A stretch of DNA of 64,000 nucleotides from Candidatus Spongiisociaceae bacterium (GTDB lineage: Bacteria > Actinomycetota > Acidimicrobiia > Spongiisociales > Spongiisociaceae): NCBI GenBank assembly GCA_965262915.1, contig OZ253564.1, positions 4,991,039 through 5,055,038 of the forward strand, in the 5' to 3' direction. Shown here piece after piece: positions 5,080 to 19,357 of this stretch (positions are counted from its first letter, which is position 1; each line of letters starts with the position of its first letter). The notes under the pieces are model-generated. The model was not told where the DNA came from and searched no databases. It saw only the letters and a program-made list of their open reading frames with translations. The translations under genes and the position numbers were made by a program.

Positions 5080-6309
5080 CTATATTGTGCAAATCGGTTG
5101 TTGGGTGAGCCAGTGTTGGTATCGGGTAGCGAGCTGGTGGTTGTGGTCTCGGCCTAGCTCGAGTGCTGAGATGCGGCTGGGGTGGGTTCGGATAGCTCGG
5201 GCGGCCTCGGTGACGGTTATACCGGCTTGTCGGCGTTCGCTGCGTAGTTTCGCGCAGTTCGGGGTTGGTGGCGGGGTGGTGAGGATCCGGTAGATCTCGC
5301 GGGCGATGTGCCGTTTCAGGCATCGGATGATCTCGGTTCGTTTCTTGCCCTCCGCCTGGCGTCGGGTGACGTAGTCTTTGGTGGCGGCGTCGGTGCGCAT
5401 CCGGGTGGTGGCTATCCGCCAGAGTGCGCTGTTGGCTTGCCGGTTGCCGCCCCGGTTGAGACGGTGCCGAACTGTTCGGCCAGACGACGCTTGGACGGGG
5501 CTGGTGCCACACAGCGCAGCAAAGGATCGTTCCGATTTCATCCGCTTGGGGTTGTCGCCGGCGGCGACTAGCAGCGTGGCAGCTGTGTTGGGTCCGATAC
5601 CTTTGGTGGCCAACAACGCCGGGTTGGCCCTGGCGCAGAGGCGTTTGATCTCGGTGTCGTGTTCTGCGATCTCGGCGTTGAGTGTCTGGTAACGGCGGGC
5701 TAGACGACGGAGAGCCAGCTTGGCGTAGCTGACAGAGGACTCTCCGCTGGGTCGGAACCGGGCGCAGACCCGGACCTGTGCTTTGAGTTTCATATCGCTT
5801 AGCTGGGCTTTTAGCGGCTCTGGGGCACCAACCAACAGAGAATGGAACTGGTTGGCGGCCTGGGTTCGGGCCTTGACCGCCGAGCGCCGAACTACTGTCA
5901 GCATCCGTATCCACTCGACCGGCCCATCCCCGGACTTGGGAACCGCGGTTGCTTCACCACTGAGAGCAGCACGAGCGGCTGCCTCGGCGTCGACGTTGTC
6001 GTCTTTGCCCCGCTGGCGACGTAGTTGCCGGTTGGGACGGTTCACCTCCACCACGTCTATGCCGGCCCCGAGGAGATGACGGGAGAGACCGGCGCCGTAG
6101 CTGCCGGTCCCTTCCACCCCGACCCGGCTGATCCGACCCTGCGACTCCATCCAGGCCACCAGTTGCGCATAGCCGGCGGGATCGGCTCGGAACTGGGCGG
6201 ATCCCAGCAGGCGACCTGCGGTATCAACCACCGCCCCAACATGGGTATCCCGGTGTGTGTCCACCCCACCGACCACAACCGGCTCCTCGGCTCTATCTTG
6301 GTCTGTCAT
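5080..6309 (-). CDS. IS110 recombinase (DEDD RuvC-like + Tnp_20) with C-terminal XRE-like HTH
   Basis: GVDTH, GVEGTG, KDDNVDA, ASSG serine, GGNRQAN; tail LRSERRQAGITVTEAARAIRTHPSRISALELG. Confidence 0.92.
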   Translation of the reverse strand: MTDQDRAEEPVVVGGVDTHRDTHVGAVVDTAGRLLGSAQFRADPAGYAQLVAWMESQGRISRVGVEGTGSYGAGLSRHLLGAGIDVVEVNRPNRQLRRQRGKDDNVDAEAAARAALSGEATAVPKSGDGPVEWIRMLTVVRRSAVKARTQAANQFHSLLVGAPEPLKAQLSDMKLKAQVRVCARFRPSGESSVSYAKLALRRLARRYQTLNAEIAEHDTEIKRLCARANPALLATKGIGPNTAATLLVAAGDNPKRMKSERSFAALCGTSPVQASSGRTVRHRLNRGGNRQANSALWRIATTRMRTDAATKDYVTRRQAEGKKRTEIIRCLKRHIAREIYRILTTPPPTPNCAKLRSERRQAGITVTEAARAIRTHPSRISALELGRDHNHQLATRYQHWLTQQPICTI

Positions 6310-6344
6310 GTGCTCACCCTTTCGCTGGCTGACTACAATTCCAA

Positions 6345-6520
6345 GTCCCCTGAGCCGGGTAGAGCGGCGGACAGAACACTCAAGGCGCAAAAGTCGAAGC
6401 TCCTATTAGGTCACCCCGCTCCCCGGTTCAGGAGTCCCAGCGGGGGCCAGGTCGACAGATCATGACAAAGGCACCAAAGGCCAGTTACGAGGTGAGTCAG
6501 ACCCGCCCCCGCCGAAGACC
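6345..6520 (-). ncRNA. Putative IS110 bridge RNA
   Basis: Two stem-enclosed loops: target guides CCTCGTAAC (6484-6492) and GTCATG (6461-6466); donor guides ATAGGAGCTTC (6396-6406) and TGAGTG (6377-6382); transcript ends approximate. Confidence 0.85.
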
Positions 6521-6525
6521 CGACC

Positions 6526-6531
6526 ATTATG
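6526..6531 (-). promoter_or_regulatory. -10 box (CATAAT) of the IS110 circle-junction promoter; -35 TTGCAC lies at 5087-5092
   Basis: Joining the ends gives TTGCAC-17 bp-CATAAT pointing into the bridge RNA. Confidence 0.75.
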
Positions 6532-6533
6532 AG

Positions 6534-7725
6534 TGTTACGAGGATTCCTCGGGCGGCGTAGTTGTCGTAGTTGGTGAACCCGTGGGCGACGCGGCGTAGG
6601 ACTTGGAGGAGGTTGTTGGTTCCTTCGATGGGTCCGTTAGTGGCTCGTCTGCTGGTGTGGTAGGCCAGGATTTGTTCTCCCCAGGCGATGATGGTGTCCA
6701 CAACTTGGTGGTATTGGGGTATCTGTCCGGTGGCGTAGAGGTCGGCGAACCGTCCGAGCGCCTGGTTAGCTTGATCCGGGTTGTCGGCTTCATACAGTTG
6801 GTAGAGCTCTTGGAGAGCGTCCCACGCGGTTCGCAGGACGTGGATGAGCGTCGAAGAGCCGGTCGAGATACTTCTGGTGGGCTTCGGTGAGGTGATCGGC
6901 TCGGCGTAAGAGGGTAAAGCGGGCTCGGAACAGGTCCGGCTCGAACGTTGGGGGACGCAGCTGGGGGTCCCGGCGTTGTATCTCTCGTCGTACCAGGGTG
7001 AGGCCTTGGGTGAACCAGCGGACGACGTGGAACCGGTCGAGCACATGGCGAGCATCGGGCAGATACTGTGCGATGGCTGCCTGGTAGGAGCGGGACCCGT
7101 CGGAGACGACTATCTCCACCTGGCGGCACCACCAGGCTCCTTGGTCTCTGAAGAACCTGGCCAAAGACCCTTTCGTGCGACCTGGGATCATCGCCAGGAC
7201 CTTGCCGCTGTCACCACAGGCCACCACGGTCACATACCGATGCCGGCGCCGGATCGATGTTTCGTCGACCAACAGCACACGACACGGCCGGGCCCGGCGA
7301 CGCTGCGCCACCCGCTCCGAGTGAGCTCTCACCAACCCCATGATCCGATGCCATCCCACCCCATGATGGCGGCCCACCGCCCGAATCGACATCACCGTTG
7401 CGTCGGCGACTAGACGACGGGCGAAACGGCGGGTCAACCCGGCTTGGAACTCGGCATGGTCCTCAAGGTGACGCTCCCCACAGTTTCCACATTCGAACCG
7501 GCGGCGACGTCACACCAACGTTGTGCGGCGTCCACTCACCTCCAAATCCCGAACCCTCTTTACCCTTCGGTCCCACACCCTGTAGCAGCGGAACCCACAA
7601 TGGCGGCACCTCGACCACTCCCGGGCCGATTCGACTTCAACCTCAAGACGCTCAACAGAGTCGACCCCCACTCTCATCACGCGAACACCCGACAGGTGCA
7701 GCCGTACTTGCATAACATCAGACAT
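6534..7725 (-). pseudogene. ISL3 transposase (TGA at 7510-7512, frameshift near 6840, stop codon displaced by IS110)
   Basis: CRHCG...CGNCG zinc ribbon, VDETS, VSDG, DRFHVV, TNGPIEGTNN...HGFTN. Confidence 0.85.
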
Positions 7726-7831
7726 CGAGGCCTCTCCCTGGATTCGGCGTTTTGGCTATTCACCGATTCCAGCGAGGCCTCAACCCCATTCCAAGGATTT
7801 CAACCCACCCACCCCACAATTCCGCGCAGCC

Positions 7832-8055
7832 TCTACAAGACAGAACTCATCCGACAGAGGGGACCGTGGCGCAACCTCGACCAGGTCGAGTACGCCACAC
7901 TCGAGTATGTGGACTGGTTCAACCACCGGCGGCTCCTCGAACCCATAGGGCACATCCCACCAGCAGAGAAGGAGTCCAACTACCATCGCCAACAGAACCG
8001 AGTCCAGCTAGCTGGACTCAAATAAAACACTCTCCGGCAAAGCCGGTACGGTTCA
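7832..8055 (+). mobile_element. 3' remnant of a second IS3-family element
   Basis: LYKTELI..RGPW...YVDWFNHRRL..IGHIPPAE, then an IRR-like CTCTCCGGCAAAGCCGGTACGGTTCA. Confidence 0.8.
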
Positions 8056-8406: not shown

Positions 8407-10176
8407 TCAAAAGGCCCATAGCCGGGGAATGAAGATGGTGGACAGGATGCAGAACAGGATGTTGAGGGGCACCCCGGCCCGCAGGAAGTCGACGTATCGG
8501 TATCCCCCCGGGTTGTAGATCATGGTGTTGGTCTGATATCCCACCGGCGTGGAGAACCCAGTTGAGGCCGCGAAGGTGATGGCCATCAGGAATGGTTTGG
8601 GGTCCACTCCGAGGTGACCCGCGGTGGAAATGGCTATAGGCGCCAGCAGCACCGCAGCCGCGGCGTTGCTCATGGTTTCGGTCATGATGGCCGCCAGTAG
8701 GTAGATAGCCGCCAGCACGGCCACCGGACCCATGTCGCCCACCAGCGACACCACCTGAGAAGCGAGGAAGCCCGCGGCCCCGCTGGTATGCATGGCGATA
8801 CCCAGGGGAAGCACTCCGGCCAAGAGGAATATGACCTGCCAATTGATGGAGCGGTATATGTCCTCCGGTTCCAGTATCCGGGTCATCACCAGGGCCACGC
8901 AACCGAGTACCGCGGTTACCGGAATCGGGACGACATCGAAAGCGGCCAGGCCCACGACCGCCAGGAGTATCCCGATAGCCAGAGGCGCTTTGTGGCGCAG
9001 GGTGCCGCCGGGCACCTCCCCGAGAACGATAAAGTCGGCATCCCGCCGTAGCTCCCGTATCTGCGTTCCGTGCGCCTGTATCAGCAGAGCGTCGCCCAGC
9101 CCGAGCCTGACCGAACCGAGCCGGTCGTTGATAGTCTTGCCCCGGCGCTGCATGGCCAGCACTAGCGCCTTGTAGCGGTTGCGGAAATCCACTTCCTTCA
9201 GAGTGTGCCCGATCAGGTCGGAACCAGGAGCCACCAGGGCCTCCACCAGACGCAAATCCTCACTCTGCAGCGTTTCGTCTCGGAGCTTGAAATCGGCATC
9301 TATCCGCAGACCCATAGTTCCCCGGAGCCGCATCAGGTCAGGCAGCGAGCCATGCACCAGAAGCACGTCGTCTGGTTGGAGAACTCTCCTGAGGGGCGCC
9401 CATCCCTCCTCCCCTGCGTTGAGCACCCCCAGCACCCTTATATCGTGGTCCTCGCCCAGTCTGCTCTCCAGCACCGATTTCCCCACCAAGGGGGACTTGT
9501 GGCGTATTCTCAGTTCGGTCACATATTCGCCGAGGTGGTAGCTAGTCGCTAGTTCATGAGGCTGGCGGTCAGGCAGCAACCAGCGGCCGAAGATCAGGAA
9601 ATAGGCCACTCCGGCAGCGAACAGGATCAGACCCATCCGGCTGAACTCGAACATGCTGAATTCCCCGTAGCCCGCCTCGGCGGAGATGGAACTCACCAAC
9701 AGGTTGGTGGAGGTGCCTATGAGCGTGCATACCCCTCCGAACTGGGAGGCGTAGGAGAGAGGGATCAGAAGTTTGGACGCGGCTATCTTCCGTCTGGTGG
9801 CCAGGATCGTCACCAGTGGTATGAACACCGCCACTGCGGCTGTGTTGTTCACGAAGGCCGACATCACCGTCACCGCCACCATGATCACGACCAGCGCGGC
9901 GAAATGGTTCCGGCTGTAGCGAACCATCATCCGGCCTACCACCGCGGTGGCCCCCGTTTTCTGCAGCCCGGCGCTGAGTACGAACATGGCAGCGACTGTC
10001 AGCGTGGCCGGGTTGCTGAACCCAGAGAACCCATCCTCGAGAGTTACCAAGCCGAGCGCCAGCAACACCCCGAGGCCCAGCATGGCCACTATGTCCAAGC
10101 GGTACTTCTCGGAGACGAACAGCACCACAATCCCAACGAGGATCGCGGTCACCAGCAGGCCGTCGACGGTCATCAC
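8407..10176 (-). CDS. SLC13/DASS-family permease with TrkA-C (RCK_C) domains
   Basis: Hydrophobic N- and C-terminal blocks, SAFVNNT, TLIGTSTNLL, TPVGYQTN motifs, central soluble RCK_C repeats. Confidence 0.9.
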   Translation of the reverse strand: MMTVDGLLVTAILVGIVVLFVSEKYRLDIVAMLGLGVLLALGLVTLEDGFSGFSNPATLTVAAMFVLSAGLQKTGATAVVGRMMVRYSRNHFAALVVIMVAVTVMSAFVNNTAAVAVFIPLVTILATRRKIAASKLLIPLSYASQFGGVCTLIGTSTNLLVSSISAEAGYGEFSMFEFSRMGLILFAAGVAYFLIFGRWLLPDRQPHELATSYHLGEYVTELRIRHKSPLVGKSVLESRLGEDHDIRVLGVLNAGEEGWAPLRRVLQPDDVLLVHGSLPDLMRLRGTMGLRIDADFKLRDETLQSEDLRLVEALVAPGSDLIGHTLKEVDFRNRYKALVLAMQRRGKTINDRLGSVRLGLGDALLIQAHGTQIRELRRDADFIVLGEVPGGTLRHKAPLAIGILLAVVGLAAFDVVPIPVTAVLGCVALVMTRILEPEDIYRSINWQVIFLLAGVLPLGIAMHTSGAAGFLASQVVSLVGDMGPVAVLAAIYLLAAIMTETMSNAAAAVLLAPIAISTAGHLGVDPKPFLMAITFAASTGFSTPVGYQTNTMIYNPGGYRYVDFLRAGVPLNILFCILSTIFIPRLWAF

Positions 10177-10475: not shown

Positions 10476-10995
10476 CTAGTGGCGATCTCCTTTCGGTCGG
10501 TGTTTGCGGGCCTGGGCTTGGTAGGAGCGGAGCCGGTAGTTGTCGCCTGTGATGGTGAACGCGACGCTTCGGTGGAGGAGCCGGTCCACATGGCAGCGGC
10601 GATGGTGGTGTCGGAGAAGATGTCTCCCCAGGACGCGACGTTGCGGTTGGTGGTCAGGATGACCGATCCTTGCTGGTAGCGGCGGGAGATGACCTGGAAC
10701 AGAGCAGCCGCGTATCGTGATGGCATTGGTAGGCAGCCGAGTTCGTCGATTATGAGCACGGCGGGGCCGGAGAAGAACCGCATGGTGGCTGCCCATCTGC
10801 CTTCGAGGGCGGCTTTGCGGCAGCGCGCTGCTAGCCACCCCTTGGAACTAACCGTCTAGGTCAGCGGCGGTTGTGTAGTAGACCCGGTGGCCGCCGTCGA
10901 CCGCGGCCCGGCCCAGGATGACCGCCAGCATGGTTTTTCCGACACCGGGCGGTCCGATGAACAGCACGTTGGTCGCGTCGGCCAGATAGCCGCCG
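10476..10995 (-). pseudogene. istB: IS21-family IstB helper ATPase fragments
   Basis: FIGPPGVGKTMLA Walker A, LIIDELG Walker B, ILTTN, DRLLH, G.NYR, split over several frames. Confidence 0.8.
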
Positions 10996-11133
10996 CATGC
11001 GAGTTCTCGTACGAGTTTTTCATTGATGCTGGGCTGAGGACTATGCCGTATGCTGGCGGGTGGAGGAAGGAAACTGCCTTTGACCTGGGATTATGAACAG
11101 TTCTGAAACAACGAGCGACCATCAGCAACAGTG

Positions 11134-11206
11134 TGGGCCCGGCGGGGATCGAACCCGCGACCTTCGGATTAAAAGTCCGCTGCTCTCCCGACTGAGCTAC
11201 GGGCCC
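11134..11206 (-). tRNA. tRNA-Lys(UUU), CCA not encoded
   Basis: GGGCCCG acceptor stem, TAGCTCAG D-arm, CTTTTAA anticodon loop, GGTTCGATCC T-loop. Confidence 0.95.
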
Positions 11207-11266
11207 GATTACCAGGGTAGCCGCCGGGTGGGCAACGGATTGGCTCCGGGGCGATAGGCTCGGCGG

Positions 11267-13075
11267 GTGATCGGCTACGGGTACTCTGGACTTCCTCCGG
11301 TGGGCGTGACGGACGATGCGTTCCTGGACGACTTGGTGGAAAGGGGCCATCAGGCGTTCGAGTTGGCCTTCACACGGGGGTTTCCCTGGAAGGAGAGGCG
11401 GTGCGCCCGCTTCGGACATCTGGCGGCCGAGAGGAGGATTCGGCTGTCGGTCCACGCCCCCTACTTCGCAGTTCTCACCGTGGCTGACGAAGACCGGGCT
11501 AAGCAGTGCCGGGCGGCCCTCGAGCACACCGTCAAGCTGGGAGCCGAACTCGACGCCCGGATCGTGGTCGCCCACCTGGGTGCGCGGCGGGGGGAGGAGC
11601 CCGGCGTCCTGCTCGACCGCATCCGGGAACACCTGGATTGGATCGGCGCCAAGGTGTCGGGCCTGGGAGTGGGCCTCGGCCTGGAGACGACCGGGCGCCT
11701 CTCCCACATGGGCAGCCTGGGGGATATCGCCCTGCTGGCCGCCGAGTTCCCTTTCGTGCGCCCGGTGGTCGACTGGGCTCATGTCCACGCCATCAGCCGG
11801 GGCGGTCTGGAATCTGCCGAGGCCTTCGCGGCGGTGCTCGGATTCCTGCGCGAGAACTTCCCCGGCTGGAAGATCGACCCCCTCCATACCCAGTTCAGCG
11901 ACGTCCTGTACGGCGAGATGGGTGAGATCCGGCATATTCGGTACGGAGACGGAACGCTACGGGTGGAACCCCTCATGGAGGCGGTCCGGGCAGCCGGAAT
12001 GCGCATGACGGTAATCTCGGAGTCCCGCGACACCCGCTCGCACGATGCCATTCACACCGGAATCCTCGACGCGCTCGCCGCCCCGGCGCCCGGCGGGCCG
12101 GATGGCCGGGAGGTGGCGAGCGGAGCGGTCGAGTTCCCGGTGGTTCCCAGGGCCAGGGAGATGGCCGACGGGTATCCCTTGACGGGCTACGAGCGGCCTC
12201 TGCGCCTCTCCAACCTCGACAAACAGTTCTTCCCCGACGGGTACACGAAGGGAGACCTGATCTCGTACTACGCGTCGGTGGCTCCACTTCTCCTCCCGCA
12301 TTTGGCGGACCGAGCAATAGTGATGGCCCGATTCCCGGACGGCTCGGAAGGGGGGTTCTTCTACGAGAAACAGGCTCCAGGTCATCAGCCCGACTGGATG
12401 CAGCTCGCCCCCCTCGAGTCGGCAGCCAGGGGCGGGATTATCGACTTCGTGACCGCCCTGAACGTGGAATCACTGATGTGGCTGGCCAACATGGGCTGCA
12501 TCGAAATCCACCCTTGGCTGTCGCGGCTCCAGCATCTCGACAGCGAGGACTTCGCCGTTTTCGATCTCGATCCTGCGGAAGGCGCGAGCTGGGAGCAGGT
12601 CGTGTCGGTGGCCAAGCTGCTCGGGGTGGCACTGGATCGTCTGGGACTGCGCGGCTATCCGAAGACCTCGGGTGCCAGCGGGATCCATGTCTACGTCCCC
12701 CTCGACCCGGTACACGGATACGGGAGGGTGCGTCGCGTCGTCGAACAGGTGGGTCGTCTCATGGCATCGGCCAATCCCGCAGACGTGACCATGGACCGCC
12801 ACATCCCCAACCGGAGGGGGAAGGTCTTTATCGACTCGGGACAGAACCGGGCGGGCGCCACGATCGCCTCGGTCTATTCGGTGCGCCCCCGACCCGGAGC
12901 GCCGGTGTCGACCCCGATCCGCTGGGAGGAACTGGATCAGGTCACTCCCGGGGATTTCACCATCGCCACCGTGTGGGACCGGATCTCCCGCTACGGCGAC
13001 CTGTTCGCTCCGGTTCTGGAAGGCGGTCAGGTTCTGGACCGGGCAGAAGATGCCCTGGGCTTCGGCAGGGACTAG
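11267..13075 (+). CDS. Fusion: endonuclease IV-like TIM barrel + LigD-type primase-polymerase domain
   Basis: N-half SVHAPY, AHLG, LETTG, DWAH, H.QFS, ISES; C-half LSNLDK, TKGDL..YY, FDLDP, KTSG..GIHVY, YSVRPRPGAPVSTP. Confidence 0.85.
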   Translation: MIGYGYSGLPPVGVTDDAFLDDLVERGHQAFELAFTRGFPWKERRCARFGHLAAERRIRLSVHAPYFAVLTVADEDRAKQCRAALEHTVKLGAELDARIVVAHLGARRGEEPGVLLDRIREHLDWIGAKVSGLGVGLGLETTGRLSHMGSLGDIALLAAEFPFVRPVVDWAHVHAISRGGLESAEAFAAVLGFLRENFPGWKIDPLHTQFSDVLYGEMGEIRHIRYGDGTLRVEPLMEAVRAAGMRMTVISESRDTRSHDAIHTGILDALAAPAPGGPDGREVASGAVEFPVVPRAREMADGYPLTGYERPLRLSNLDKQFFPDGYTKGDLISYYASVAPLLLPHLADRAIVMARFPDGSEGGFFYEKQAPGHQPDWMQLAPLESAARGGIIDFVTALNVESLMWLANMGCIEIHPWLSRLQHLDSEDFAVFDLDPAEGASWEQVVSVAKLLGVALDRLGLRGYPKTSGASGIHVYVPLDPVHGYGRVRRVVEQVGRLMASANPADVTMDRHIPNRRGKVFIDSGQNRAGATIASVYSVRPRPGAPVSTPIRWEELDQVTPGDFTIATVWDRISRYGDLFAPVLEGGQVLDRAEDALGFGRD

Positions 13076-15446: not shown

Positions 15447-16196
15447 GTGGGGGCTGTGACAGATGGGCCTCTCACATACCGGGTCGAGGAATTGGCCACT
15501 GAGGCGGGTATAGGCGTCGATACCATCCGCTACTACCAGGGGATGGGGCTGTTGCCCCCTACGGATCGCGATGGCCGCGCGGTCGTCTACGGACCTGCAC
15601 ACCTCACCCGGCTGCGGACCATCCGGGCGCTGGCGGATGACGGATTCACGCTCGCGCAGATCAAGCGGCTCCTGGACGAGTCCGGACACCCGCTACTTGT
15701 CTCGCTAGCCGGAACGGTTGTCGGATTGACCAGAGCCGAACTGGCCGAGCGATCCGGACTGGCACCGCCATTGGTGGACATTGCGGTCTCGACCGGCCTC
15801 ATCGAACCGCTGGGCGGGGGTGGCGACGAGCGTTTCTCACCCGATGTGGCACCGATGCTGGCCGCCGGACTGTCACTGCTGGAAGCCGGTTTCCCGCTCG
15901 ACCGGCTTGCCGCTCTGGCTACCCGCCATGCAACCGGGGTGGAGAGCGTGGTCGACGAGGCGATCGACCTGTTCAAGGAACATGTACGATCCGGCCAGTC
16001 GGACAGCCCCGATGCCCTCGCCGGGTTGTTCCTGACATTGGTAACCCACGTGACCAGGCTTGTCGCTCAGCACTTCCATCACACCGTCGCAAGCCGAGTG
16101 AAAGAACGACTCGAAGGATCCGACGACGTGGCGCTGGTCGCAGCCCTCGAGAACGCCGGGAAGCAACAACTCGTCATCTCCACCGAATGGCGATGA
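15447..16196 (+). CDS. MerR-family regulator with a second HTH-like segment
   Basis: YRVEELATEAGIGVDTIRYYQGMGLL; GFTLAQIKRLL; LTRAELAERSGL. Confidence 0.85.
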   Translation: MGAVTDGPLTYRVEELATEAGIGVDTIRYYQGMGLLPPTDRDGRAVVYGPAHLTRLRTIRALADDGFTLAQIKRLLDESGHPLLVSLAGTVVGLTRAELAERSGLAPPLVDIAVSTGLIEPLGGGGDERFSPDVAPMLAAGLSLLEAGFPLDRLAALATRHATGVESVVDEAIDLFKEHVRSGQSDSPDALAGLFLTLVTHVTRLVAQHFHHTVASRVKERLEGSDDVALVAALENAGKQQLVISTEWR

Positions 16197-19100
16197 GCGA
16201 CAGGAGCCATCTGGAGAAACGGATCGCCCAGGCAGCTGCAAGGGCGGCGGTTTCAGGTAGGCCATCTGTGGTCACCGTGGCCGCCCGAGCGGATGGTGCC
16301 GACCCCTTAGCCGTAGCCTTGGGAAGCGACCCGCCATTCGCATACTGGGAGATGCCGGACCGTGGTTTCTCCTTTGCAGCACTCGGCGAAGCGCACCGGA
16401 TAGTTCCGGGGCGGGAGACCAACAGATTCAGAAGCGCCTCGGCGGCCCTGCGCGACCTGGTTACCCGGACCCACCAAGTGTCCCTGGACGGAGCAGAACG
16501 GACGCCGATGCTGGTGGGCGGCTTCTCGTTCCATCCGGAGGGCGGTTGGCCAGGGTTCCCGGCCGGCTGCCTTGCCTTGCCCGAATTGGCCCTCATCCAG
16601 CGCGACCGGGGCAGTGTGTGGGTGGCAGCGACCGAGATAACGGACGCGGATGATCCTGAAACCCGAGCGGACGCGCTGATCGAACGAATCGAGAAGGCCC
16701 GTACCAACCACATTCCACGAATCACTCCAAAGGTGTTCGACCGTCCTGAAGCCGGCAGCGTCGACCTCACCGACCCCGCTTTCCTGGACGTGGCGGCCGT
16801 AGCGATCCGCCAGGTTCGTAGCGGAACCCTCAGGAAGGTCGTCCTGGCTCGGCAGGTCGAGTTGGACCATCGTCCCGATCTCGGCCCGTTTCTGGCCGCG
16901 CTCCGCCAGATCCACCACACCTGCGCTGTCTTCGCCTTCGGCCGCGAGGGGGGCTCGGTCTTCTGCGGAGCAACGCCCGAACTTCTGGCCCGGGTCGACG
17001 GCGTCGGCGTATCCACGCTCGCCCTGGCCGGCACCGCTCCCCGGGGCAGCAGCCGTGCCGACGACGACCTGCTCGCCGACCGCCTCCGTAACGATCCCAA
17101 GGAACTGGAGGAACACGAATACGTGCACTCCGAGGTCTTGCGCCGGCTGGATGAAGAGGGCTTCGTCGTTGCGCCTCCTGCACCTACCGAGGTGATGAAA
17201 CTAGCCGGTATCCAGCATCTGGCCACTCGGGTCACCGCCATCGCCCCGGTCGGGACCAACGTCTTGGACGTGGTGGGAGCCCTGCACCCAACCCCTGCCG
17301 TGGCCGGCCTGCCAAGGGATCGCGCCGTGGAGTGGATCGAAGAGCAAGAGCCACTCGACCGAGGCTGGTACGCCGGACCGATCGGCTACTGCGATCTGGC
17401 CGGCAACGGTGAGTTCCATGTCGCCATACGTTCCTGCCTGATCGAAGGGGAGCGCACCCGGCTCTTCGCCGGCTCCGGCATCGTGGGAACCTCCTCGCCC
17501 GAGCGGGAACTGAAGGAGACCGACCTCAAGCTGGGCGCGATCCTACCGTCGTTGTTCGGGATGCAGGACCACCGCTGGCGTACGTATGCAACCGCCGACA
17601 CTCTGCTCGCTTCCCTCCGCTCGGGAGGGGTGGAAAGCGTCGTGATCTCACCCGGTTCCCGATCCACCCCTCTGGTCGTCGCCGCGGCGAGCGAGGGACC
17701 ACCCTCGCACGTAGTGCTCGACGAGCGGTCAGCCGGTTTCGTGGCGCTGGGAATGGCCAAGGCTTCCGGTAGGCCGGCGGCGCTGATCTGCACATCCGGC
17801 TCGGCCGCAGCCAACTACCTGCCGGCCGTCGTTGAAGCCGACCGGGCCCGCGTGCCACTCGTGGTGCTGACCGCCGATCGGCCACCCGGGTTTCTCGACA
17901 GGGACGCTCCCCAGACCATCGATCAGGTAGGACTCTACGGCTCCCATATCCGGGCGGCTGTCAACCTACCCGTCGCCCACGAATGCAACCCGCGCCAGGT
18001 GCTGCAGGAAGCGATCCGGGCAATCCGGGCCGCCGAGCCCCCCAATGCGGGCCCCGTCCACGTCAACGTCCCCTTCGCCAAACCCCTCGAGCCGCCCACC
18101 CTCCGCGAACTGCAGGTCGACCTACCGGTAACCGGGTCAGTACCGCGACCGACCGGTGGCGCGGGCGCAGCCTCGGTCGAGGCGTTGAGCAACTTCATCG
18201 GGAGGTCCGGGCGCGGGGTGATCGTGGTGGGACCGCGCAGCACTGACCCGGCCGAGCGGGAGGCTATCGCCGGGCTCGGTTCAGCATCGGCCTGGCCCAT
18301 CCTCGCCGACGGGATGTCCGGGTTAAGGGTCCTCGAACACCAGAACCTCCTCACGACGGGAGACCTCCTGCTGCGGGATACATCCTTCGTTGCGGCCCAC
18401 CGGCCGGACGCAGTGGTGCGGATCGGACCCACCCCGACCGGATCGACCACCCAGGGCTGGCTGGAGTCACTCGATGTTCCCGTTGCCGTGCTGGACCCGG
18501 ACTTCCGATGGTCAGTTCCCGGACCGGAACTGGTCCTGCGCGATCCTATAGGCCCGCTCCTCGAAGTGGTGTCACCCCGTCCCCTCGGACCCGGATGGTC
18601 GGCTTCGTGGCGTGCAGCCGAGGAGCGCGTACGCCGCCGTCGCGCGGTCGAGCGCTCCCAGCACGCCGATACCGAACTGGCTGTCACGGCTGCGGTGCTC
18701 GAGTCCGAGCCGGTGGTGTGGACTGCCTCCAGCATGCCGGTGCGGCACGTGGACGCGATGATGGAGCCGGGATGCGGCGCGCTGGTGCTCGGCAATCGGG
18801 GCGCGTGCGGGATCGACGGAACCATCGCCTCGGCAACCGGCGCTGCCCTGGCGCTCGGAAGGCGGGTGACCGCCCTGGTAGGCGACCTCGCCTTCCTCCA
18901 CGACGTCGGTTCGCTGGCCGCGGCCCGGAGACTTGAGGTGGATCTCTCGATAGTCGTACTGGACAACGGAGGAGGCGCCATCTTCGAAGCTCTCCCCTAC
19001 CTGCGATCCCTCCGCGAGGCGGGTGACGAGAAGGCCTACGCCAAGGGACGGGAACTGTTCGTCACCCCCCACAGCCAGGATCTAGTCGCCGTGGCGGCCG

Positions 19101-19357
19101 GATTCGGCGTGCCGGCCGAGCGGGTGCGTCCCGAAAAGCTACCCGCGGCGCTGGCCGGGGGGCATAGCCGGGCGGGCATCTGCGTCTTCGTCGTGGAGAC
19201 CGACCCGGCGGCCATGTTCGCGGCCTACGACCGTCTGGCCGGACGGTGGGACCGGCCTCGCCGACGGTCCGAAACCGCCGACCCGGCTCAGCCTTTGAAA
19301 CCGGCGATCAGGTCCTGTTTCAGGTCGGAAAGTTCGGGGCTGAGCGACACGTGGTAG
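16187..19357 (+). CDS. menD: MenF-MenD fusion (isochorismate synthase + SEPHCHC synthase)
   Basis: [31 protein letters not shown], then [36 protein letters not shown]. Confidence 0.9.

What the first reader, a model, noticed from the sequence alone, without database searches (positions are those of the whole stretch)
11267..13075. Endonuclease IV fused to a LigD-type primase-polymerase
Seen: one uninterrupted 602-aa ORF. The first ~270 aa carry EndoIV-type metal ligands (HAPY, H.G, E, D.AH, H, RH, E); after a Pro/Gly/Ala linker comes a complete AEP polymerase domain (DLD, SG..G.H, D..QN). No Ku or ligase gene is recognisable in this window. Known: LigD polymerase domains usually pair with ligase or phosphoesterase domains in NHEJ, and stand-alone mycobacterial Prim-PolC fills short gaps in excision repair. 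Inference: a single-chain nick-and-fill base-excision-repair enzyme (AP-site incision, then gap filling, possibly with NTPs). I do not recognise this as a characterised architecture.
Basis: partly seen in the sequence, partly recalled or inferred. Interest (0 to 1): 0.8.

Follow-up and report, generated by a model that had tools for sequence, protein, structure and literature searches.

The report
Endonuclease-IV-like nuclease fused to LigD polymerase
This is a real, widely conserved but apparently unstudied bacterial gene that joins a DNA-nicking/end-cleaning enzyme to a DNA-break-repair polymerase in one protein, which suggests the two steps of break repair are physically coupled in these bacteria.

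Summary
Window 11267-13075 (+) is one 602-aa gene: an AP_endonuc_2 TIM barrel (residues 1-271), then a LigD-type primase-polymerase (312-602).

It is not an assembly artefact. All 120 listed relatives carry both domains. 116 of 151 genomes of the same Acidimicrobiia order have the barrel, and 106 of 119 matches lie in frames of at least 589 aa. Four protein clusters and genome G490 carry the same two domains in the opposite order.

The polymerase is LigD/Prim-PolD type. It passes the ligD_pol model, lacks Prim-PolC's Loop 3 and falls outside the Prim-PolC clade. The genome has its own Prim-PolC next to a LigC-size ligase.

Ku lies elsewhere in the genome and accompanies the fusion in 104 of 116 genomes. 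One genus keeps the fusion with no Ku or ATP-dependent ligase found.

Best reading: a nuclease that makes or cleans a 3'-OH, coupled to a fill-in polymerase, mostly serving Ku-linked break repair. I found no paper describing it. It is a new variant of a known kind.

The parts
11267..13075 (+). Whole gene: 602 codons plus stop, GTG start; apparently monocistronic (divergent from the tRNA upstream, convergent with the TetR gene downstream)
   Evidence: full-length relatives
11267..12079 (+). Residues 1-271: endonuclease-IV-like TIM barrel (Pfam AP_endonuc_2) with conserved E32, H63, Y66, F67, H103, E140, D169, H172, H174, H207, D212, E220, H223, Y226, E252
12080..12199 (+). Residues 272-311: a Pro/Gly/Ala stretch followed by a partly conserved bridging segment with short strands; predicted as ordered, not as a floppy linker
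   Evidence: Full-length AF2 model: pTM 0.92, pLDDT 78-95 over this segment. S285 and P291 invariant in 51 aligned sequences
12200..13072 (+). Residues 312-602: LigD/Prim-PolD-type primase-polymerase with K319, K328, D433, D435, S468, G469, G472, H474, D523, Q526, N527; no Prim-PolC Loop 3
   Evidence: PF21686 full length. TIGR02778 scores 234.9 against a cut-off of 214.7. PDB sequence hits 5dmu 1e-50 and 2iru 2e-39. Fold TM 0.89-0.90 to LigD-type polymerases. Tree
11133..11206 (-). tRNA-Lys(UUU), divergent upstream neighbour; a conserved landmark of the locus, not a functional part
   Evidence: The same tRNA lies upstream of the fusion gene in 27 of 36 related loci scanned

Best explanation
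The gene encodes a two-activity DNA strand-break repair enzyme.

Proposed mechanism (inferred):
1. The N-terminal endonuclease-IV-like metal-dependent phosphodiesterase creates or cleans a 3'-OH. It would do this by incising at abasic sites and/or by removing 3'-blocking groups such as 3'-phosphate.
2. The C-terminal LigD-type primase-polymerase docks on the 5'-phosphate of the break or gap and extends that 3'-OH by a few nucleotides.
3. A separate ligase seals the nick.

Proposed role (inferred). In most host genomes the protein supplies the nuclease and polymerase parts of a split LigD-type system that works with Ku and a small stand-alone ATP-dependent ligase. The endonuclease-IV-like domain would stand where LigD's phosphoesterase domain usually stands. 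The protein can probably also act on nicks and short gaps without Ku.

What is shown here: the architecture, the folds, the conserved catalytic residues, the distribution across genomes and the co-occurrence with Ku. What is inferred: the substrates, the order of the steps and the partners.
For: Both domains look catalytically intact and are under selection.
- In 120 fused relatives E32, H63, F67, H103, E140, D169, H172, E220, H223, Y226 and E252 are invariant.
- In the 51-sequence alignment D433, D435, G469, G472, H474, D523, Q526, N527, K319 and K328 are invariant.

The N-domain resembles endonuclease IV.
- The family profile hits MJ1311 at E 9.5e-12 and Endo IV chains at 4e-8. MJ1311 is the protein listed as the M. 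jannaschii EndoIV homologue in PMC2770678 (passages read).

The polymerase is LigD type.
- It passes the curated ligD_pol model, whereas the genome's other polymerase does not (172 bits against a cut-off of 214.7).
- It is 37-43% identical to polymerase domains of canonical Ku-adjacent LigD genes. Prim-PolC is only 26-29% identical to those.
- In the tree it groups with those domains, away from Prim-PolC (100* branch).

The linkage of the two domains is selected.
- The same two domain families occur fused in the opposite order in P0246, P0385-P0387 and genome G490, with every key residue kept.
- AF2 models the whole protein as one body (pTM 0.92).

There is a link to Ku.
- Ku is present in 104 of 116 genomes with the fusion and in 18 of 35 without it.
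- 7 of those 18 Ku-positive genomes without the fusion carry a phosphoesterase-domain match; four that I fetched (G038, G110, G142, G202) have a LigD-type polymerase beside Ku.
- In G490, G013, G270 and G300 Ku is present and the fusion is the only LigD-family polymerase. In G490, G013, G270 and G624 Ku sits next to a small ATP ligase (open frames 329-365 aa).
- The window's own genome has Ku, no phosphoesterase domain and no ligase that meets the LigD-ligase model.

There is precedent for the pairing in the literature (passages read).
- In mycobacteria EndoIV co-purifies with LigC and was the best 3'-end processor before Prim-PolC gap filling (PMC5663958).
- In B. subtilis spores nfo and ligD deletions are not additive, and LigD fills AP sites already incised by an AP endonuclease (PMC4770248).
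Against: - No Ku or ligase gene lies within about 6 kb of the fusion in any of 80 related loci, so there is no operon support.
- 12 of 116 genomes with the fusion have no Ku match. Five of these are at least 90% complete. They include all three genomes of genus g17, where no Prim-PolC or ATP-dependent ligase was found either.
- 20 of 116 genomes with the fusion also have a phosphoesterase domain, so the fusion does not simply replace it.
- The Ku association is not corrected for shared ancestry.
- The N-domain fails NCBI's Nfo cut-offs. The recalled Asp229 position is Ile. His207 is Gln in 29 of 120 relatives.
- Sugar epimerases of the same fold score only 2-3 Z units lower.
- No activity has been measured.
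Confidence: 0.5

Rival explanations
1. A Ku-independent, single-chain excision-repair enzyme. The N-domain incises abasic sites, the polymerase fills the resulting one-to-few-nucleotide gap, and any ligase, including the NAD-dependent LigA, seals it. On this reading the co-occurrence with Ku only reflects shared ancestry or a shared lifestyle.
For: - Genus g17 (G078, G126, G315; 95-100% complete) keeps an intact 601-aa fusion with its catalytic residues. No Ku, Prim-PolC or ATP-dependent ligase was found in these genomes.
- No Ku or ligase lies near the gene in any of 80 loci.
- Y66 and F67 follow the first metal His, where the genome's own Nfo has Tyr-Leu (HAPYF against HAPYL).
- LigD-type polymerases fill short gaps at incised AP sites in vitro (PMC4770248).
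- EndoIV followed by a Prim-Pol and then a ligase has been reconstituted (PMC5663958).
Against: - The genome already has a canonical Nfo, a Prim-PolC orthologue and a LigC-size ligase for that pathway.
- The fused polymerase lacks Loop 3, which PMC7442782 describes as the element that adapts Prim-PolC to short gaps.
- Ku accompanies the fusion in 104 of 116 genomes.
- In several Ku-positive genomes the fusion is the only LigD-family polymerase.
- Neither domain is known to carry a 5'-dRP lyase; in B. subtilis LigD that activity sits in the ligase domain.
Confidence: 0.3
2. The N-domain is not a DNA nuclease. It would be either a structural platform or an enzyme acting on a non-DNA phosphodiester or sugar substrate, as many AP_endonuc_2 members do. 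The protein would then be simply a LigD-type polymerase with an accessory barrel.
For: - Pfam AP_endonuc_2 is a broad family.
- The NCBI Nfo models are not met, and there is a weak hit to the cobamide phosphodiesterase CbiR (E 0.016).
- Stand-alone relatives about 40% identical sit beside phosphoglucomutase-type and cytochrome c biogenesis genes, not repair genes.
- An Endo-IV-like archaeal protein, PF1383, was inactive on AP DNA (PMC2770678).
Against: - The conserved set is rich in His (H63, H103, H172, H174, H223, with H207 mostly His) plus E140, D169, E220 and E252. That is the Endo IV type of multi-metal site. It is not the single-metal site of four acidic and His residues that I recall for the epimerases.
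- PF1383 lacked exactly the His and Glu residues that are kept here.
- The best sequence matches in the PDB are Endo IV, its homologue MJ1311 and UvdE, all DNA enzymes or their homologues.
- Fusion to a DNA polymerase in both domain orders argues for a DNA substrate.
- The barrel of the swapped-order protein P0246 hits the Nfo model at E 5.8e-15.
Confidence: 0.1
3. The long frame is an artefact: two neighbouring genes joined by a sequencing or assembly error, or a decaying gene.
For: A few relatives are split or truncated. G322 has a frameshift in the N-domain, and G086 has a stand-alone polymerase nested within the fused clade. Thirteen of 119 matches lie in frames shorter than 589 aa; I checked only G322.
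Against: - All 120 listed relatives carry both domains in about 600 aa.
- All 55 matches in the class sample lie in frames of at least 601 aa, as do 106 of 119 matches in the order sample at 589 aa or more.
- Residues in both domains and in the bridge are invariant.
Confidence: 0.01

Closest known systems
Bacterial DNA ligase D (LigD: polymerase + phosphoesterase + ligase) and its split forms working with Ku
   Same: The C-domain meets NCBI's curated LigD polymerase-domain model and the full Pfam model. It keeps the catalytic Asp residues and the Lys residues aligned with the 5'-phosphate pocket. Its fold matches M. tuberculosis, P. aeruginosa and Methanocella LigD-type polymerases at TM 0.89-0.90. 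As in LigD, a polymerase is joined to an end-processing phosphodiesterase, and Ku is present in most host genomes.
   Different: There is no ligase domain and no phosphoesterase domain. The attached nuclease is a TIM barrel of the endonuclease IV type, which is unrelated in fold to the phosphoesterase domain. The gene is never next to Ku or a ligase in the 80 loci examined.
Endonuclease IV (Nfo/Apn1) and the archaeal EndoIV homologues (MJ1311; active PfuAPE PF0258)
   Different: Identity to solved Endo IV chains is only 15-18%. The NCBI Nfo models are not met (17.8 bits against 129.65; 24.1 against 244). The position aligned with the Asp of Endo IV's D-R-H motif is Ile, with an invariant Glu one residue earlier. 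There are extra invariant residues (E32, H174, D212, Y226). H207 is Gln in 29 of 120 relatives. The genome has a separate canonical Nfo.
Mycobacterial Prim-PolC / LigC / EndoIV excision-repair complex (PMC5663958, PMC7442782)
   Same: The same three activities occur in sequence: EndoIV-type 3'-end processing, Prim-Pol gap filling and ATP-ligase sealing. The Prim-Pol belongs to the same superfamily (32% identity to the genome's own Prim-PolC orthologue).
   Different: In mycobacteria the proteins are separate and are held together through LigC. The fused polymerase lacks Loop 3 and lies outside the Prim-PolC clade. The genome has its own Prim-PolC (E 8e-96 to 6sa0 over its full length) one gene away from a LigC-size ligase.
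B. subtilis Nfo plus LigD in spore DNA repair (PMC4770248)
   Same: An endonuclease IV and a LigD polymerase cooperate genetically and in vitro on abasic sites and desiccation damage.
   Different: These are two separate proteins, and that LigD carries its own ligase domain with dRP lyase activity. Here nuclease and polymerase form one chain without a ligase.

Membership tests
LigD polymerase domain (Prim-PolD / PolDom; PF21686, TIGR02778) | Full-length match to the family models above their curated cut-offs | tested here: met
   PF21686 positions 1-254 of 254, 286 bits against a cut-off of 27.4. TIGR02778 equivalog_domain 234.9 bits against 214.7. The genome's other polymerase scores 172 and fails.
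LigD polymerase domain (Prim-PolD / PolDom; PF21686, TIGR02778) | Catalytic acidic triad and nucleotide-binding motifs (DxD, SGxxGxH, D..QN) and the N-terminal Lys residues of the 5'-phosphate pocket | tested here: met
   D433, D435, G469, G472, H474, D523, Q526, N527, K319 and K328 are invariant in the 51-sequence alignment. They align with the same motifs in 5dmu and 5op0. The roles of these residues are recalled from the literature, not tested here.
LigD polymerase domain (Prim-PolD / PolDom; PF21686, TIGR02778) | Fusion to, or operon with, an ATP ligase and Ku | tested here: not met
   No ligase domain in the protein. No Ku or ligase within about 6 kb in 80 loci. Ku co-occurs only at genome level, in 104 of 116 genomes.
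Prim-PolC | C-terminal Loop 3 extension (residues 313-333 of M. smegmatis Prim-PolC; PMC7442782) | tested here: not met
   The protein ends 19 residues after the region aligned to chain residues 16-291 of 6sa0. The genome's stand-alone polymerase aligns to residues 2-343 of 6sa0. Target TM is 0.81-0.84 to Prim-PolC and 0.89-0.90 to LigD-type polymerases.
Prim-PolC | Orthology with characterised Prim-PolC and a neighbouring LigC gene | tested here: not met
   In the tree the Prim-PolC-like clade is separated by a 100* branch of length 2.18. No ligase lies near the fusion.
Endonuclease IV (Nfo; TIGR00587, NF002198) | Score above the curated family cut-offs | tested here: not met
   TIGR00587 17.8 bits against 129.65. 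NF002198 24.1 against 244.
Endonuclease IV (Nfo; TIGR00587, NF002198) | TIM-barrel fold closest to solved Endo IV structures | tested here: met
Endonuclease IV (Nfo; TIGR00587, NF002198) | Nine ligands of the three-metal site (E. coli H69, H109, E145, D179, H182, H216, D229, H231, E261; numbering recalled; 'nine residues' and E261 are named in PMC2770678) | tested here: inconclusive
   - H63, H103, E140, H207 and H223 align with Endo IV ligands.
- D169 and H172 form the same DxxH motif at the end of the same strand, but the sequence aligners shift it by two residues.
- E252 is within one residue of the last ligand.
- The Asp229 position is Ile221, with invariant E220 beside it.
- H207 is Gln in 29 of 120 relatives.
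- I could not superpose model coordinates, which the tools do not provide.
Endonuclease IV (Nfo; TIGR00587, NF002198) | AP endonuclease and 3'-diesterase activity | not testable with these tools
   Needs an enzyme assay.
Sugar isomerase/epimerase branch of AP_endonuc_2 | Single metal site of four residues (Glu, Asp, His, Glu; recalled) and a sugar-metabolism gene context | tested here: inconclusive

The most novel reading that the evidence does not exclude
The fusion is a self-contained 'clean-and-extend' repair machine. Its two active sites would be held in a fixed geometry, and it would define a previously unrecognised branch of bacterial strand-break repair in Actinomycetota. In this branch an endonuclease-IV-type nuclease, not the LigD phosphoesterase, prepares 3' ends for a LigD-type polymerase. 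The machine would plug into Ku plus a small ATP ligase for double-strand breaks, and would work alone with LigA on nicks and abasic sites. The pairing would have been selected strongly enough to arise in both domain orders.
Probability: 0.35. Interest if true: 0.75.

Novelty: new variant of a known kind. Interest (0 to 1): 0.64.

Why it matters
Cooperation between endonuclease IV and the LigD/LigC polymerases has so far been inferred from pull-downs, reconstitution and epistasis in mycobacteria and B. subtilis. A natural fusion of the two activities is independent genomic evidence that the coupling is real and selected. This fusion is conserved in about three quarters of the sampled genomes of an Acidimicrobiia order, occurs in other Actinomycetota classes, and exists in both domain orders.

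It also gives a single-polypeptide system in which end cleaning and fill-in synthesis can be studied together. It suggests that many bacteria annotated as lacking a complete LigD may still have a full end-processing toolkit. The current public names for these proteins ('non-homologous end-joining DNA ligase', 'bifunctional ... LigD', 'TIM barrel protein') are misleading, because the protein has no ligase domain.

Tried and rejected
- Ku binding. I ran complex prediction with a Ku dimer and the polymerase domain (residues 305-602), both given as alignments. The result was no answer (0.28 against a mark of 0.32) and the controls were not run. It counts neither for nor against binding.
- Operon context. 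I looked for Ku, a ligase or Prim-PolC within about 6 kb of the fusion in 80 related loci and found none. The genes between the tRNA and the fusion differ from locus to locus, so there is no conserved partner gene.
- Context of stand-alone relatives. In G598 and G622 the neighbours are a phosphoglucomutase-type gene, CcmF and an EamA transporter, which says nothing about repair.
- Window neighbours. These are transposase remnants, a CitMHS transporter, TetR, an MFS transporter and a MenF-MenD-like gene; none is repair-related.
- UvdE membership. I rejected it. There are only partial profile hits (E 6e-5 over 80 positions) and a poorer fold match (TM about 0.6).
- The minus-strand ORF 10856-11935. 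I rejected it because it overlaps a tRNA gene and has no family hit.
- Literature. Searches for the architecture found no description (passages). Sharda et al. [quoted passage not shown] I could not see that table, and it may list this domain.
- A first MAFFT run timed out and was repeated with faster settings.
Full report
**1. The observation**

Window 11267-13075 (+) is an uninterrupted frame of 602 codons that starts at GTG. A tRNA-Lys(UUU) gene lies on the minus strand at 11133-11206, 60 bases upstream. The 359-aa minus-strand ORF 10856-11935 overlaps both features and has no family hit, so it is spurious.

Pfam finds AP_endonuc_2 at residues 21-257 (E 7e-23) and the complete LigD_Prim-Pol model at 327-580 (E 3e-85). 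The window holds no Ku or ATP-dependent ligase. The genome is a single 5.06-Mb contig, and the window is its last 64 kb. It has Ku at 3.19 Mb, ATP-dependent ligases at 2.28 and 3.02 Mb, a second LigD-family polymerase at 3.02 Mb, and no LigD phosphoesterase domain.

**2. A real and conserved fusion**

- A search of 5.8 billion proteins scored 8000 candidates and found 2481 at E <= 0.001. All 120 listed (62-97% identity, 588-681 aa) carry both Pfam domains.
- Eighty loci in species-representative genomes encode it. Most record titles name Acidimicrobiia; the closest named ones (76-79% identity) are Candidatus Spongiisociaceae. A few bins carry other labels (L048, L050 and L052 Acidobacteriota; L066 Gammaproteobacteria).
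- In a sample of 301 genomes of the class, 55 have the N-domain. All 55 belong to the window's own order, and every match lies in an open frame of at least 601 aa.
- In a sample of 151 genomes of that order, 116 have it. Of 119 matches, 106 lie in frames of at least 589 aa. The other 13 are shorter, mostly in fragmented assemblies, and I examined only one of them: G322 has a frameshift.
- tRNA-Lys(UUU) lies upstream in 27 of 36 loci scanned. The locus therefore looks vertically inherited and not like mobile cargo.
- Outside the class, G624 has the same architecture, with the barrel about 43% and the polymerase about 49% identical.

**3. The same two domains in the opposite order**

I searched 1.84 billion representative proteins with the N-domain. 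This subfamily is small: 718 proteins at E <= 1e-3 and 19 at E <= 1e-30. The search turned up P0246, a 600-aa protein with the polymerase at residues 30-281 and the barrel at 347-581. Its polymerase is 42% and its barrel 37% identical to the window's protein.

Three more clusters (P0385-P0387) share this order at 97-99% coverage. The other 116 proteins listed in that search cover only 46-49% of P0246, which means they have the window's order. Genome G490 (1.5 Mb, 99% complete, another class of the phylum) also has the swapped order. All 15 barrel residues I tracked are kept in these four proteins. So are the polymerase residues, apart from minor changes: N for D318 in P0246, and Q for H474 in P0385-P0387. 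Two domain orders argue that the physical linkage itself is selected.

**4. The N-domain**

- Alignment. Aligned with 57 stand-alone relatives (32-76% identity), it shows invariant H63, H103, E140, D169, H172, H174, D212, E220 and H223, and nearly invariant H207 and E252.
- Conservation in fused relatives. Across 120 fused relatives E32, H63, F67, H103, E140, D169, H172, E220, H223, Y226 and E252 are invariant. H174 is kept in 119, Y66 in 115 (F in 5) and D212 in 116 (E in 4). H207 is His in 91 and Gln in 29.
- Sequence profile. The family hits MJ1311 (E 9.5e-12), then Endo IV chains (4e-8 to 1.5e-6), then UvdE (6e-5, partial). Kiyonari et al. 2009 (PMC2770678; passages read) list MJ1311 as the M. 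jannaschii EndoIV homologue. They show that an archaeal homologue only 13.5% identical to E. coli Nfo is an active AP endonuclease. A second homologue that lacks two His and the Glu261 equivalent is inactive.
- Ligand mapping. Alignments to Endo IV chains and to the genome's own Nfo put H63, H103, E140, H207 and H223 on Endo IV ligand positions. D169/H172 repeat the DxxH motif at the end of the same strand, although the aligners shift it by two residues. E252 falls within one residue of the last ligand. The Asp of Endo IV's D-R-H motif is Ile221 here, with invariant E220 next to it. The E. coli numbering of the nine ligands is recalled.
- Family models. The domain fails NCBI's Nfo models (17.8 bits against 129.65; 24.1 against 244). 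The genome has a canonical Nfo elsewhere (NF002198 382.6 bits against 244).

I therefore describe the domain as endonuclease-IV-like, a distinct small subfamily, and not as a member of Nfo.

**5. The polymerase domain**

- Family models. It passes NCBI's ligD_pol equivalog-domain model (234.9 bits against 214.7).
- Solved relatives. The closest by sequence are the Methanocella NHEJ polymerase (1e-50), M. smegmatis Prim-PolC (3e-48) and the M. tuberculosis LigD polymerase (2e-39). By fold it covers LigD-type polymerases better (target TM 0.89-0.90) than Prim-PolC (0.81-0.84).
- Loop 3. Brissett et al. 2020 (PMC7442782; passages read) define Prim-PolC by a C-terminal Loop 3 (residues 313-333) that adapts it to short gaps. 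The fused protein ends 19 residues after the core, so it has no Loop 3.
- The genome's own Prim-PolC. The stand-alone 333-aa polymerase matches 6sa0 at E 8e-96 over its whole length. It fails the ligD_pol cut-off. It lies one gene away from a 358-aa ATP ligase that meets NF006078 but not the LigD-ligase model. That protein is the genome's Prim-PolC orthologue, and it is only 32% identical to the fused polymerase.
- Comparison with canonical LigD. Polymerase domains of LigD genes that sit beside Ku in related genomes are 37-43% identical to the fused polymerase and 26-29% identical to Prim-PolC.
- Tree. I gathered 106 polymerase segments and used 52: every fourth fused locus and all the others. 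It was a quick IQ-TREE run with SH-aLRT support only. The Prim-PolC-like clade sits on a 100* branch of length 2.18. The fused clade (95*) groups with the Ku-adjacent LigD polymerases and with stand-alone polymerases of about 300 aa. G086's stand-alone polymerase is nested inside the fused clade, which suggests a secondary loss of the barrel.

**6. The whole protein**

A full-length AF2 model built from 51 sequences has pLDDT 92.6 and pTM 0.92. Residues 272-311 are modelled with confidence (pLDDT 78-95) and contain short strands. The protein is therefore predicted as one body, not as two beads on a floppy linker. I had no coordinates or error map, so I could not measure the relative position of the two active sites. 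No solved structure spans both domains (best query TM 0.47).

**7. Genomic associations**

I combined four searches of the same 151 genomes of the order (computed).

| | Ku present | Ku not found |
|---|---|---|
| Fusion present | 104 | 12 |
| Fusion not found | 18 | 17 |

- Ku accompanies the fusion in 90% of genomes and is present in 51% of genomes without it. The naive odds ratio is 8.2, but related genomes are not independent, so the p-value means little.
- Five of the 12 exceptions are at least 90% complete: G028, G078, G126, G315 and G366.
- Seven of the 18 Ku-positive genomes without the fusion have a phosphoesterase-domain match; four that I fetched (G038, G110, G142, G202) have a LigD-type polymerase beside Ku.
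- The phosphoesterase domain and the fusion coexist in 20 genomes.
- In G013, G270, G300 and G490 Ku is present and the fusion is the only LigD-family polymerase. Ku sits next to a small ATP ligase (open frames 329-365 aa) in G013, G270, G490 and G624.
- Against an obligate Ku link: in genus g17 (G078, G126, G315; 95-100% complete) I found no Ku, Prim-PolC or ATP ligase, yet it keeps an intact fusion. No Ku or ligase lies within about 6 kb of the fusion in any of 80 loci.
- These counts include genomes flagged as unpublished (G254, G302, G306, G528). G302 and G306 are both fusion-positive and Ku-positive, so leaving them out gives 102 in place of 104.

**8. Interpretation**

What is shown: a conserved, probably rigid fusion of an intact-looking Endo-IV-like metal phosphodiesterase with an intact-looking LigD-type polymerase, selected in both domain orders, and mostly found in genomes that have Ku.

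What is inferred: the nuclease supplies a clean 3'-OH, either by incising abasic sites or by removing 3'-blocking groups. The polymerase, anchored on the 5'-phosphate, then extends that end, and a separate ligase seals the nick.

Published work supports the pairing. In mycobacteria EndoIV co-purifies with LigC and was the best 3'-end processor before Prim-PolC gap filling and LigC1 ligation (PMC5663958; passages read). In B. subtilis spores the nfo and ligD deletions are not additive, and LigD fills AP sites already incised by an AP endonuclease (PMC4770248; passages read).

My odds are as follows.
- About 0.5: the main role is as the nuclease-plus-polymerase half of a split, Ku-linked LigD-type system.
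- About 0.1: the barrel is not a DNA nuclease.
- About 0.01: an artefact.

**9. Novelty**

Public records call these proteins 'non-homologous end-joining DNA ligase', 'bifunctional non-homologous end joining protein LigD', 'TIM barrel protein' or 'deoxyribonuclease-4'. None of these names describes the architecture, and the protein has no ligase domain.

Full-text searches found no paper describing it. The searches were for endonuclease IV with LigD, fusion and primase-polymerase; AP_endonuc_2 with LigD; bacterial NHEJ domain architecture; PolDom, TIM barrel and AP endonuclease; and Acidimicrobiia with NHEJ and LigD. Passages from a review of Prim-Pols, an Antarctic metagenome survey and an NHEJ survey do not mention it either. 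The survey's supplementary table of '20 additional domains' could not be read.

I rate the finding a new variant of a known kind: a LigD-family repair enzyme with a different nuclease module and no ligase.

Noticed in passing
window 5080-8025: A cluster of transposase remnants upstream of the locus: an IS110-type transposase ORF with an HTH tail (5080-6390, -), an ISL3 fragment (6411-7055, -) and an rve_2 integrase-core fragment (7444-8025, +).
   Followed up: no
window 16187-19357 (+): A 1056-aa ORF joins an isochorismate-synthase-like Chorismate_bind domain to MenD-like thiamine-pyrophosphate domains. It looks like a MenF-MenD fusion of the menaquinone pathway.
   Followed up: no
window 8407-10176 (-): A 589-aa CitMHS-type transporter with two inserted TrkA_C regulatory domains.
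   Followed up: no
window 11133-11206 (-) and loci L008-L079: tRNA-Lys(UUU) lies divergently upstream of the fusion gene in 27 of 36 related loci. It is usually 70-150 bases away, and sometimes an unrelated gene sits in between.
   Followed up: partly
G000 contig 1, 3022030-3025200 (loci L003, L005): The genome's Prim-PolC orthologue and its LigC-size ligase are convergently arranged. A 407-aa ferredoxin-reductase-like gene (FAD_binding_6, NAD_binding_1, Fer2) lies between them.
   Followed up: no
L103 (G086) and L106 (G322): G086 has a stand-alone 336-aa polymerase 53-56% identical to the fused polymerase and nested within the fused clade, with no barrel upstream. G322 carries a copy whose barrel is split by a frameshift.
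   Followed up: partly
genomes G078, G126, G315 (genus g17): In three nearly complete genomes I found no Ku, Prim-PolC or ATP-dependent ligase, yet all keep the fusion. They are natural test cases for a Ku-independent role.
   Followed up: partly
order-level sample: Many genomes of the order carry 3-5 LigD-family polymerases, including a distinct class of stand-alone proteins of about 300-305 aa. None of the 12 of this class that I fetched has Ku or a ligase within 5 kb.
   Followed up: partly
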